From NCBI RefSeq assembly GCF_003334405.1, contig NZ_QOWM01000019.1: DNA of 60,909 nt; one strand, written 5' to 3'. Of the stretch, positions 24,001-27,000 are shown piece after piece. The stretch's first letter is position 1. The number at the start of each line of letters is the position of its first letter. The position numbers were made by a program. This DNA is from Escherichia coli (GTDB lineage: Bacteria > Pseudomonadota > Gammaproteobacteria > Enterobacterales > Enterobacteriaceae).

Positions 24001-27000
24001 AACATCTTGTCGGAGGATGACAGCTGCACTCGCATCAAGCCATCGCCTTTGAGCGCATTGGTCAGCGTGTAATCTCCTGCACTGTTCGTTGATGCGAGAA
24101 TGTCGAGCGTACCGGGGTTTGCAATGGTTACTTCACTCGACCCCATGCCCGTTACCCCATCTGCCGTATGAGACGCAATGGTCAGGAGGCCGTCATTGAC
24201 CAGCGTTTTACCGCTATAAGTATTCCCTGCATTGAACACCGTATGGCCTGCATCATGGATCACTTTTCCGTCTTTATCGTCACCTGTAATCAGCATATCG
24301 ACCTGGTAGCCGGCATCACTGTTATTGGTATGATTAAAGACAAAAACGCCTTCGCCAAGACCAAACTCCACTTTCGTCGCATTGGTGATAAATCCGGCAT
24401 CTGCCGCCGCCTCACCGTGAGCAGCACCAATGTTTAGCGTTCCTACAGCAGGCTCAAAAACACCTAAGTAAACTTCTCCACCTTCGACATTCAGCGTACC
24501 GTTATTCGTCAGGGTTAACGTACCCGTACCAGATGTCCCTACGTACATATTGAATGTTTCAAGAAGAGAGTTCTGCCCATCCACCCTCACGTCGCCCTTA
24601 CTTTTGTCATTGAGAGCTATCTGTGTATCACGCGCTTTAACTATACCTCCGGTGGTAATATTCAGTTCACCCGTGCCTAATACACCGACCTGTAGCAATT
24701 GTGCGTTAGTAGATGATGTCTTTAAATTCCAGAGACTGTCCGTTGAAATATTAACTATCCCCTTACCGGAGGCATTTCCTCCGATAAATCCATAGCCCGT
24801 TGAATTAAGGGTGGCACCATTACTGACATTTACGATACCGCTACCAAAATTACCGACATTGATACCCACAGTATCGAACGATGATGTCGCATCCATCAGG
24901 TTCAGTGTGCCGATACCGCTTGCTTTATCGCCCAAAAAAGTAATATTTTGCGATACGAACTTACCGCCATCGCTAATATTGAGGTTTCCGACGCCCGCAA
25001 CACCAATGGTGGTATAGACATTCTTATTGACCTCCCACATTCCCCCTGTGGTGATGCTGACATTCCCGACGCCGGTTTCTCCATAACCGAGTGAACTTCC
25101 TCCGTTGCTGACAACAAGCCCCTGATTACTGATATTCATTTCGCCGTGGCCGTCATAACCAAGATTAGTTCCGAGATTAGTGATAACGGAGTTCTTATCC
25201 TTAACAGTAATGTTGCCTGTGCCTGTTTCTTTCATCCCCGCAGTGATAATTCCCGAATCTACTTTGCCTTCACTCGAGACATTAAGTTAACCGTCGCCAG
25301 CATCACCGATATAGATATAGCGGAAAGCTTCGCCCGTTCCGAGGAAATTCCAATGCCCTTTATCGGTCACGTTGACGACACCGTGGGAACCGTCCTGAAC
25401 GCCCACCAATGAATATTCTTTGTTATTAATCAGTCCATTATTGGAAATATTGACTGTGCCATTACCAAAATATCCATTATAGAGTCTGCGTACCGTGATG
25501 ACAGAGTCTTGATCCTGCACATTCAGGGTTCCGATACCGGTGGCATTGCCACCGATAATCGTATTTTCAGCCGTAACCAACCCCCCCTCGCGAATAGTCG
25601 CCTCCCCAGTTCCTTGATTACCAATTTGAAATTCAATTGAGGAATCATTATTTTTTATTAGCCACTCGCCACCCTTTTCAACGACAACCTGGCCATTACT
25701 GCCCGCCTGATAGCCTAAAATGGCGACGATTGAACTCGTGACGTAACCCTTATCCGTAATATTTAATGAACCTGTGCCATAGCTACCTATTTCGAATAAT
25801 TCGGTCGTCAGAACAGAGTCCTCTCCCTCAACATTGACCGTCCCGACGCCTCCTGTCGAAGAACCTAATCTTAAATAGCCTCCATCGACGTGACCCTTCT
25901 GTTTAATATTCAGCGTCCCCGTTCCGGATTGACCCACATTTAAAGGCCTTGCATTATTTCCGCTATCATACAATCGCCAGGTGCCACCCAAAACATTAAC
26001 GGTGCCCTCTGAGTCCTCATTAGCGCCAATGACGCTGGTAGTAATAGTGGTTAAGGAGGCATTACCGCCAGCCAAAATATTAAGCACTCCAGTGCCATAC
26101 CAGCCAACCAGGTAGGCATCATAAGCAACATCAGTATCAATATTGGTAATCTGATCATTATCAACTTCCAGACTTGCACCAGACGCTGAACCGCTTAGTG
26201 CCAGCAAAACACCCAGCGTCAATCTACTGAATTTCGTTGTCAGTCCAGAGGATTTACGCAAATTAACCGTCGATGTTTTACCTGCCCTGCGAGTTAATTC
26301 CGAGCAGGCCTGAAATACCTGTAGAGTGCAATTCCATATCACGCGATAGATTCTATTCATATAAACGCTCCATATACAAACAATACAGCCACGAAAGAGA
26401 TGAGTCGTCAGACATTAAAAATGAAACTTATTAAATTGTCAGAGGTCTGTATTGAGTGTTAGTTGGAGGTGGGAAGGTGTCAATTTGGCTAATTTGCTAA
26501 TGCTTTCGAATTGATAGATTAAAAATTGCATAGTTCTTATTTTATTTAAATATGAACTATGAGTTATTGTTGCTTAATAAGAAAACTGTTTCTTTCAATA
26601 GGAAAATTATCATCATCATATTTAACAAAGAATAGCACTAATTGCTAAAAATCGAAGTTTATTAAACCCCTTTTGCATCCATTAGTGTCTTTAGGAATAT
26701 TCGCTATAAAATAAGGGTTGTGCTTAATGCTTTAAGAAAAATAGCAATTTTCCCTTGAATATAGTACTGGTGATGGAACGATGAATCTGCAAGCTGGCTT
26801 TTAACAAGCCAGCTCTAAAAGAAGGGAAATAAGAATAACTATACTCAAAAACTAACAGCCACGGTCATCATGATGTGGCTGTCAATGAAACTATAACCCA
26901 GGCGCTTTCCATAACGACGTCGTCAGTCCATGATCAACCAGCCCCAGCTGATCCTGATAAACTGCCTGCCACTTATCGCGTGAATCCTGATAAAGTTCAT

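What the first reader, a model, noticed from the sequence alone, without database searches (positions are those of the whole stretch)
26361..26890. Long AT-rich leader upstream of the disrupted autotransporter
The 530 bp between lsrK and the yneO start is strongly AT-rich, with runs such as TTATTTTATTTAAATATGAACTATGAGTTATTG. This is typical of nucleoid-protein-silenced promoters of horizontally acquired adhesin genes.
Basis: inference. Interest (0 to 1): 0.25.

Follow-up and report, generated by a model that had tools for sequence, protein, structure and literature searches.

The report
H-NS-bound promoter spacer upstream of yneO
The 530-bp AT-rich gap between lsrK and the broken autotransporter gene yneO is an already published H-NS-bound "promoter island" that also holds the lsrK terminator, a MarA binding site and the yneO promoter, so it is a real but ordinary regulatory spacer, not a long leader.

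Summary
Window 26361-26890 is the 530-bp yneO-lsrK spacer of a K-12-like E. coli. Its GC is 0.32, falling to 0.25 in the middle. It is the longest of 34 intergenic regions in the window.

Panyukov & Ozoline 2013 list this spacer as one of 78 "promoter islands" and mark it as H-NS-bound in all three ChIP data sets they compiled. Shimada 2014 and 2017 report in vitro binding of H-NS, sigma-70 holoenzyme and sigma-S holoenzyme.

"Leader" is the wrong label. The lsrK-proximal ~100 bp holds the predicted lsrK terminator. The two best sigma-70 promoters lie within 125 bp of the ATG, giving a 5' UTR of about 47-88 nt. Nothing suggests a structured RNA.

It is identical to a published MarA ChIP-seq and gel-shift site in ETEC H10407. 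It lies about 190-235 bp upstream of the core promoters.

"Horizontally acquired" is only weakly supported, because the gene body has host-like GC (0.50).

De-repression of yneO in an hns mutant, and any effect of MarA on transcription, remain unshown. Verdict: already known, low interest.

The parts
26361..26890 (.). Whole yneO-lsrK intergenic spacer: 530 bp, GC 0.321, the longest spacer in the window.
26851..26886 (-). Predicted intrinsic terminator of lsrK. The core stem CAGCCAC...GTGGCTG spans 26856-26881 and is followed by UUAGUUUUUG. It starts 5 nt after the lsrK stop codon.
   Evidence: Fold of 26780-26900 on the minus strand: -41.8 kcal/mol, z = -5.5. The stem is invariant in 7 E. coli lineages. 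Two lineages have a 3-nt deletion that gives a cleaner U tract. The simple terminator scan did not call it. No experimental 3' end was found.
26791..26815 (-). Second hairpin or palindrome, AGCTGGCTT-TTAAC-AAGCCAGCT. It is perfect only in the K-12-like lineage.
   Evidence: Substitutions in other strains break pairs without compensation, so a conserved structure is unlikely.
26447..26791 (.). Published 'promoter island' 1596197_345 (U00096.2 coordinates, converted). This is the AT-rich core (GC 0.299), reported as H-NS-bound in three ChIP data sets. The sigma-S holoenzyme SELEX peak at 1596530 converts to about 26780.
   Evidence: The +1976 shift from U00096.2 to U00096.3 is my inference from genome-version differences recalled from memory; its only check here is that both published peaks then fall inside the spacer.
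26632..26651 (+). Marbox ATAGCACTAATTGCTAAAAA. The core GCACTAATTGCTAAA is at 26635-26649. It is in backward (class-I-type) orientation with respect to yneO transcription.
   Evidence: Identical to the MarA ChIP-seq site 'yneO' of ETEC H10407, which bound MarA at 0.3 uM in vitro. The H10407 spacer is 100% identical to the window, and the published site centre maps to about 26643. Only two sites in the 60.9 kb match the 19-nt consensus with at most 1 mismatch; the other is the marRAB marbox at 47314.
26455..26483 (-). Candidate promoter P1: TTGACA (26483-26478), 17-nt spacer, AACACT (26460-26455). Predicted start is about 26448, giving a 5' UTR of about 88 nt.
   Evidence: PWM score 9.0. Both hexamers are invariant in the E. 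coli strains sampled. The arrangement is conserved in the Pseudocitrobacter vendiensis orthologue as TTGACA-17-GACACTCAAAACAGAC.
26414..26442 (-). Candidate promoter P2: CTGACA (26442-26437), 17-nt spacer, TTTAAT (26419-26414). Predicted start is about 26407, giving a 5' UTR of about 47 nt.
   Evidence: Best PWM score in the spacer, 10.5. It is the same sequence that Shimada 2014 lists for yneO. The -10 is TTTAAC in 2 of 7 E. coli lineages, and the promoter is not conserved in Pseudocitrobacter.
26361..26403 (-). Conserved short 5' UTR with Shine-Dalgarno GGAG (26371-26368), 7 nt before the ATG.
   Evidence: 88% identical to the P. vendiensis orthologue from 43 nt upstream of the ATG onward. 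It is no more structured than shuffled sequence, z = +1.2 to +2.0.
25287..26360 (-). 5' fragment of yneO, an ECSE_1600-family AIDA-type autotransporter. It starts with the extended signal peptide MNRIYRVIWN... and ends at an in-frame TAA (25289-25287).

Best explanation
The 530 bp is a composite intergenic region, not a transcribed leader. Reading in the direction of transcription, from lsrK towards yneO, it has three parts.
1. The lsrK 3' end, with a strong terminator-like hairpin.
2. A roughly 345-bp very AT-rich block. It offers many overlapping promoter-like sites and is a preferred substrate for H-NS. It also carries one high-affinity MarA/SoxS/Rob-type site.
3. The real yneO promoter or promoters, within about 125 bp of the start codon, followed by a short unstructured 5' UTR with a good ribosome binding site.

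The most likely mechanism is as follows. H-NS nucleates on the AT-rich block and spreads over the core promoter. This keeps the autotransporter gene almost silent under laboratory conditions, even though RNA polymerase can bind the naked DNA.

What is shown (published): H-NS, sigma-70 holoenzyme, sigma-S holoenzyme and MarA all bind this spacer. What is inferred: that H-NS binding silences yneO, which of P1 and P2 is used, and what MarA binding does.
For: - Published H-NS occupancy in three ChIP data sets, and promoter-island status.
- An H-NS SELEX site and a sigma-70 holoenzyme site with promoter CTGACA-17-TTTAAT.
- A sigma-S holoenzyme SELEX peak in the same spacer.
- A MarA ChIP-seq peak plus gel shift at a sequence identical to 26635-26649.
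- GC 0.25-0.32, a TpA frequency of 0.094 per bp against 0.056 for the window, and 13 A/T tracts of at least 4 nt.
- 19 promoter-like -35/-10 combinations in the spacer against a mean of 6 per 530 bp, which puts it in the top 2.4%.
- The two best-scoring promoters point at yneO and lie 55-125 bp from the ATG.
- P1 and the 43-nt UTR are conserved in a different genus. Everything further upstream there is unrelated in sequence yet equally AT-rich, GC about 0.32. This is what is expected if composition, not sequence, is selected.
- A terminator-like hairpin lies directly after lsrK.
- yneO is inactivated independently in many lineages: nonsense here; frameshifts in MG1655, O157:H7, H10407 and strain 300444; IS1 and IS3 truncations. 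This fits a rarely expressed gene.
Against: - I found no data showing that yneO is de-repressed in an hns mutant.
- I could not retrieve a mapped transcription start site.
- The H-NS high-affinity motif TCGATAAATT is not enriched beyond what the composition predicts (2 sites with at most 2 mismatches, P = 0.44). Binding would therefore rest on general AT-richness.
- The AT content is not exceptional among intergenic regions of this H-NS-rich window.
- The spacer is more variable between E. coli phylogroups (93.6-97.9% identity) than the flanking genes, so much of it may be only loosely constrained.
- The tool's strict promoter scan found no site in the spacer.
- ydeK is listed as 2.2-fold changed in a Cpx-regulon table, so it is not completely silent.
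Confidence: 0.8

Rival explanations
1. The spacer is a long transcribed 5' leader of yneO with RNA-level regulatory function, such as a riboswitch, attenuator or sRNA target platform. This is what the reader's title implies.
For: A weak promoter-like site, TTAGCA-17-TTAAAT, with a predicted start near 26613, sits at the marbox and would give a leader of about 250 nt. The spacer is unusually long.
Against: - No Rfam hit at E <= 1.
- The 430-nt hypothetical leader folds no better than shuffles, z = -0.74. The proximal 77-118 nt fold worse than shuffles.
- Sequence conservation with the Pseudocitrobacter orthologue stops about 125 bp from the ATG.
- The top-scoring promoters are proximal.
- The distal 100 bp belongs to the lsrK terminator.
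- The one clear hairpin outside the terminator varies without compensating changes.
Confidence: 0.06
2. MarA (or SoxS or Rob) is the main regulator. The marbox lets stress-induced MarA activate yneO, either by counteracting H-NS from a distance or through a local promoter. H-NS binding would then be secondary.
For: Near-consensus marbox. Only this site and marRAB's own marbox match in the 60.9 kb. MarA is bound in vivo and at 0.3 uM in vitro in H10407. The marbox is retained, with at most one substitution, in every E. coli spacer sampled that still has this segment. There is a precedent for an upstream-bound factor acting only against H-NS: SlyA at fimB, with sites 167-194 bp upstream of the start (abstract of PMC3173223).
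Against: The marbox centre lies about 193 bp (P1) or 234 bp (P2) upstream of the predicted starts. From my own knowledge of Martin et al. 1999, that is far outside class I/II geometry. The only promoter-like site next to it has its -35 inside a backward-oriented marbox, a non-functional arrangement by the same rules. I found no expression data linking yneO to mar, sox or rob. The Pseudocitrobacter upstream region has no marbox.
Confidence: 0.2
3. The AT-richness has no dedicated function. It is ordinary mutationally AT-biased intergenic DNA, lengthened by decay of an older sequence, and protein binding is incidental.
For: Seven of 34 spacers in the window are as AT-rich. The spacer evolves faster than the flanking genes. 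It tolerates a 21-bp duplication, small deletions, and IS1 and Tn3-family insertions in natural isolates. No H-NS nucleation motif is enriched.
Against: Four different proteins are reported to bind it, in six data sets. The marbox, P1, the UTR and the terminator are conserved. An unrelated but equally AT-rich upstream region accompanies the orthologue in another genus.
Confidence: 0.12
4. The spacer hides an unannotated small protein gene or small RNA.
For: Small ORFs of 20-30 codons exist on both strands. Promoter-like sites are present on both strands.
Against: RefSeq annotates nothing here in MG1655 or in any of the genomes sampled. There is no Rfam match. The ORFs are short, AT-driven and lie in the least conserved part of the spacer.
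Confidence: 0.03

Closest known systems
Promoter islands of E. coli K-12 (Shavkunov/Panyukov/Ozoline); this locus is entry 1596197_345 ydeK/lsrK
   Same: It is that entry. It is AT-rich, dense in promoter-like sites, binds RNA polymerase, is H-NS-bound and sits next to a gene predicted to be foreign. My own PWM scan reproduces the high density.
   Different: Nothing differs. This window differs from MG1655 at one base in the spacer (26763). The published island covers only the central 345 bp, not the terminator or the core promoter.
H-NS-bound upstream regions of other cryptic E. coli K-12 autotransporter genes (ycgV, yfaL, ydbA)
   Same: The spacers upstream of ycgV, yfaL and ydbA are also in the promoter-island table with H-NS marks. 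The architecture is the same: an AT-rich spacer in front of an adhesin-type gene.
   Different: For yneO I found no experiment showing de-repression in an hns mutant. Its gene body is not AT-rich (GC 0.503).
mar/sox/rob regulon promoters (marRAB, micF, ybjC and others)
   Same: The marbox is near-consensus and binds MarA in vivo and in vitro.
   Different: The distance to the likely core promoters is about 190-235 bp, whereas in canonical promoters the marbox overlaps or lies just upstream of the -35. No transcriptional effect is documented.
SlyA antagonism of H-NS at fimB (PMC3173223)
   Same: An activator site lies well upstream (167-194 bp) of the start in an H-NS-covered AT-rich region of an adhesin-related gene (abstract).
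   Different: This is an analogy only. The protein family differs (MarR-type SlyA versus AraC-type MarA), and nothing has been tested at yneO.

Membership tests
H-NS-silenced (xenogeneic-silencing) promoter region | AT content well above the genome average | tested here: met
   GC 0.321, with a core of 0.25, against 0.473 for the window. This is the lowest 0.13% of 530-bp windows.
H-NS-silenced (xenogeneic-silencing) promoter region | H-NS occupancy in vivo or in vitro | tested here: met
Bound in all ChIP data sets compiled by Panyukov & Ozoline. H-NS genomic-SELEX site reported by Shimada 2014. I did not see the raw tracks.
H-NS-silenced (xenogeneic-silencing) promoter region | De-repression of the downstream gene when hns is deleted | not tested
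   No data were found in the papers that could be searched.
H-NS-silenced (xenogeneic-silencing) promoter region | The downstream gene is horizontally acquired | tested here: inconclusive
   Against: the gene body has GC 0.503 and GC3 0.521, like the host. For: the spacer is present in 4225 of 5426 E. coli genomes; among about 100,000 species representatives the gene was found only in Pseudocitrobacter vendiensis, in a different genomic context; and it is flagged as foreign by Nakamura et al..
Promoter island | Unusually high density of promoter-like sites over at least 300 bp | tested here: met
   Listed in Table 1 of PMC3661553. My own PWM scan gives 19 sites against a mean of 6, in the top 2.4%. 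The stricter built-in scan found none.
Promoter island | RNA polymerase binds, but output of long transcripts is low | tested here: inconclusive
   Sigma-70 and sigma-S holoenzymes bind in vitro. Low output is stated for the islands as a class, not for this locus specifically.
mar/sox/rob regulon promoter | Marbox matching AYnGCACnnWnnRYYAAAY | tested here: met
   1 mismatch in 19 at 26632. This is one of only two such sites in the 60.9 kb.
mar/sox/rob regulon promoter | MarA binding | tested here: met
   Published ChIP-seq peak plus gel shift at 0.3 uM, on a spacer identical to the window.
mar/sox/rob regulon promoter | Class I or class II spacing and orientation relative to the -35/-10 | tested here: not met
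   The marbox is backward-oriented and centred about 193 bp (P1) or 234 bp (P2) upstream of the predicted starts. The local weak promoter has its -35 inside the backward marbox. The spacing rules come from my own knowledge of Martin et al. 1999.
mar/sox/rob regulon promoter | MarA-, SoxS- or Rob-dependent transcription | not tested
   No data found.
Structured 5' leader or riboswitch | Conserved RNA structure between the start site and the ATG | tested here: not met
   No Rfam match. z-scores are +2.0, +1.2 and -0.74. There is no covariation.
Intrinsic (Rho-independent) terminator, for lsrK | GC-rich stem-loop followed by a U tract just after the stop codon | tested here: met
   Hairpin at 26851-26886 followed by UUAGUUUUUG, z = -5.5 for the 121-nt stretch, and invariant across lineages. 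The interrupted U tract and long loop explain why the simple scan missed it. No experimental 3' end is available.

The most novel reading that the evidence does not exclude
In strains with an intact gene, the distal marbox could let MarA, SoxS or Rob relieve H-NS silencing of this autotransporter. That would couple antibiotic or oxidative-stress signalling to surface adhesin expression through long-range counter-silencing, rather than through classical class I/II activation.
Probability: 0.15. Interest if true: 0.45.

Novelty: already known. Interest (0 to 1): 0.15.

Why it matters
It matters little beyond annotation. The spacer is a documented H-NS-bound promoter island in front of a cryptic, often decayed adhesin gene. 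The useful corrections are these:
- It should not be called a leader.
- It contains the lsrK terminator.
- It carries a published MarA site whose function is untested.

If MarA does counter-silence this gene in strains with an intact copy, that would link the mar stress regulon to adhesion. That is a modest, testable question.

Tried and rejected
- Rfam scan of 25000-30000 at E <= 1: nothing.
- Built-in promoter/terminator scan: no site inside the spacer. I replaced it with my own PWM scan and with folding.
- H-NS high-affinity motif search: not enriched over composition.
- Distant blastn against plasmids and E. coli genomes: no paralogous copies. The 'plasmid' hits are mislabelled chromosomes.
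- Start-site and 3'-end data could not be retrieved. The Cappable-seq supplement is truncated when stored. Thomason 2015 is not held. Adams 2020 supplements do not mention lsrK or yneO. Kahramanoglou 2011 supplements are not held. The Sharma 2017 supplement has no yneO detail.
- Small ORFs in the spacer (20-30 codons): rejected as composition-driven and unconserved.
- The hairpin at 26791-26815 as a functional RNA or DNA structure: rejected for lack of compensating changes.
- A rightward (antisense-to-lsrK) class II MarA promoter: no suitable -10 at the required distance, from my reading.

Full report
**Identity and geometry**

The window is E. coli, 99.95% identical to K-12 MG1655 1588000-1603000, with 7 substitutions and 1 indel in 15 kb. 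On the minus strand lie lsrR (28562-29515), lsrK (26891-28483) and the autotransporter gene yneO (20940-26360). Other strains annotate yneO as an 'ECSE_1600 family autotransporter' of 1806 aa.

The finding, 26361-26890, is exactly the lsrK-yneO spacer and equals MG1655 1598087-1598616. It differs from MG1655 only at 26763.

yneO starts with a typical extended signal peptide, MNRIYRVIWN... It is preceded by GGAG (26371-26368) 7 nt upstream of the ATG. In this window the gene is broken by an in-frame TAA at 25287-25289. MG1655 has a +1 frameshift instead, so these are independent lesions.

Yes.
- GC is 0.321 over the 530 bp, 0.299 over 26447-26791 and 0.249 over 26500-26700. The window as a whole is 0.473.
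- Only 0.13% of 530-bp windows are as AT-rich.
- The quoted run is at 26537-26569.
- Judged against intergenic DNA, the composition is unremarkable. The 34 spacers average GC 0.388 and seven are at or below 0.33.
- This is, however, the longest spacer in the window, at 530 bp against a median of 162.

**What is already published for this interval**

- Panyukov & Ozoline 2013 (PMC3661553) list 'ydeK(-)/lsrK(-) 1596197_345' among 78 promoter islands. They code it 'A', meaning H-NS-bound in the Grainger, Kahramanoglou and Oshima data sets. They also associate it with a gene predicted foreign by Nakamura et al.. With the +1976 shift from U00096.2 to U00096.3, which is my inference, the island is window 26447-26791.
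- Shimada 2014 (PMC3946193) lists, for the spacer 'yneO < HNS < lsrK', a sigma-70 holoenzyme SELEX site with best promoter CTGACA-17-TTTAAT, plus an H-NS SELEX site.
- Shimada 2017 (PMC5493296) lists a sigma-S holoenzyme SELEX peak at 1596530, which converts to about window 26780.
- Sharma 2017 (PMC5684230) reports a MarA ChIP-seq peak in ETEC H10407 with site gcactaattgctaaa, assigned to yneO, that binds MarA at 0.3 uM.
- That 15-mer occurs once in the window, at 26635-26649. The H10407 spacer is 100% identical to the window, and the published site centre maps to about 26643.
- ydeK also appears as 2.2-fold changed in a Cpx-regulon table.

**Anatomy worked out here**

1. *The lsrK 3' end.* Five nucleotides after the stop codon, a strong hairpin (26851-26886; core CAGCCAC...GTGGCTG) is followed by UUAGUUUUUG. 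The 121-nt stretch folds at -41.8 kcal/mol, z = -5.5. The stem is invariant in seven divergent E. coli. Two lineages carry a deletion that makes the U tract continuous. A second hairpin at 26791-26815 is perfect only in K-12-like strains and varies without compensation elsewhere.

2. *The AT-rich core with the marbox.* A consensus scan for AYnGCACnnWnnRYYAAAY with at most 1 mismatch finds two sites in the whole 60.9 kb. One is this site (26632, plus strand). The other is the marRAB marbox at 47314. Relative to yneO the site is in the backward orientation, as in the mar promoter.

3. *Core promoters.* My PWM scan gives, as the two best sites in the spacer, P2 and P1, both pointing at yneO.
   - P2 is CTGACA(26442-26437)-17-TTTAAT(26419-26414), score 10.5, predicted start about 26407. 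This is Shimada's promoter.
   - P1 is TTGACA(26483-26478)-17-AACACT(26460-26455), score 9.0, predicted start about 26448.

   The 5' UTR is therefore about 47-88 nt. The marbox centre lies about 193-234 bp upstream of these starts, outside canonical class I/II geometry (my own knowledge of Martin et al. 1999).

**Comparative evidence**

The spacer is single-copy and chromosomal. It is present in 4225 of 5426 complete E. coli genomes at 93.6-100% identity. Between phylogroups it diverges more (93.6-97.9%) than the adjacent yneO 5' part (96.7-97.9%) or lsrK (97.6-99.1%). The marbox (at most one substitution), P1, the UTR and the terminator are nevertheless retained. The P2 -10 is TTTAAC in 2 of 7 lineages.

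A scan of about 100,000 species representatives with the N-terminal 357 aa found one genuine non-E. coli orthologue. It is in Pseudocitrobacter vendiensis, at 74% amino-acid identity, downstream of bluR/bluF-like genes rather than lsrK. Its 307-bp upstream region is again GC about 0.32. It aligns with E. coli only over the 43-nt UTR (88% identity) and over TTGACA-17-(A/G)ACACTCAA(T/A)ACAGAC, which is P1.

So composition, P1 and the UTR are conserved. The rest of the sequence, P2 and the marbox are not.

**No evidence for an RNA leader**

- Rfam gives nothing.
- The 77- and 118-nt putative UTRs fold worse than shuffles, z = +1.2 and +2.0.
- A hypothetical 430-nt leader has z = -0.74.
- ORFs in the spacer are at most 30 codons and unconserved.

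**H-NS motif and horizontal transfer**

The H-NS high-affinity motif is not enriched beyond composition. Any H-NS binding is therefore best attributed to general AT-richness and TpA content (0.094 per bp against 0.056).

'Horizontally acquired' is weakly supported. The gene body has GC 0.503 and GC3 0.521, like lsrK and lsrR. Its distribution, however, is patchy.

yneO is repeatedly and independently inactivated in different strains:
- nonsense codon in this window;
- frameshifts in MG1655, O157:H7, H10407 and strain 300444;
- IS1 and IS3 truncations.

The spacer itself has taken a Tn3-family/tet(A) insertion in ST540 and an IS1-associated deletion in L37.

**Conclusion**

The AT-rich spacer is real, and it is the known H-NS-bound promoter island in front of a cryptic autotransporter gene. 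It still lacks a locus-specific expression test.

The word 'leader' is wrong. The spacer is terminator, then AT-rich H-NS/RNA polymerase/MarA binding platform, then proximal promoter, then a short UTR.

The MarA site is the only element with an open functional question. Novelty: already known. Interest: low.

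Noticed in passing
window 25287-25289 (minus strand TAA); MG1655 1594125: yneO is inactivated by different lesions in two strains that are otherwise 99.95% identical. 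This window has an in-frame nonsense codon (GAA to TAA at codon 358). MG1655 has a +1 C frameshift. Other lineages carry further independent frameshifts or IS1/IS3 truncations, while several isolates keep an intact 1806-aa gene.
   Followed up: partly
L014 (Pseudocitrobacter vendiensis NZ_CALSBS010000034.1) 1505-5071: The only non-E. coli orthologue found (74% amino-acid identity over the first 357 residues) lies downstream of bluF/bluR-like genes, not lsrK. It has an unrelated but equally AT-rich 307-bp upstream region that shares only the TTGACA-17-RACACT promoter and the 43-nt UTR.
   Followed up: partly
L006 (E. coli ST540) 4316 onward; L007 (strain L37) 4291-5036: The spacer is a site of mobile-element damage in natural isolates. 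A Tn3-like TnAs1/tet(A) block interrupts it after window position about 26675 in ST540. In L37, an IS1B has removed all but the last 36 bp, along with the yneO 5' end.
   Followed up: no
L018 (gull isolate NZ_CP134663.1), alignment A2 columns 293-313: There is a 21-bp tandem duplication (TATTTTTCTTATTGAAAGAAAC-like) inside the AT-rich core. This record is a 4.9-Mb chromosome labelled 'plasmid' in PLSDB.
   Followed up: no
window 26488-26501: A direct repeat, GCTAAT-TT-GCTAAT, lies just upstream of the P1 -35. It resembles the GCTAAA half of the marbox. No function is known, and one copy varies in O157.
   Followed up: no
window 47314 (minus strand): The canonical marRAB marbox, ATGCCACGTTTTGCTAAAT, lies in the same window, about 20.7 kb from the yneO marbox. 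These are the only two consensus-grade marboxes in the 60.9 kb.
   Followed up: partly
L013 (MAG 'Candidatus Nanosynbacter' JARKOR010000214.1) and L015 ('Marinomonas sp.' NZ_JSEO01000039.1): Both contigs carry E. coli-like yneO sequence, at 97% and 90% amino-acid identity. L013 also has the spacer at 98% DNA identity. They look like E. coli contamination of those assemblies.
   Followed up: no
window 321-681, 10800-11200, 14762-15094, 52772-53046: Several other long, equally AT-rich spacers occur in the same window: gadB-pqqL, ydeN-ydeO, ydeP-ydeQ and ydeI-ydeJ. Some are also listed as H-NS-marked or as promoter islands in the papers read. This makes the window as a whole H-NS-rich (window GC 0.473).
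   Followed up: no
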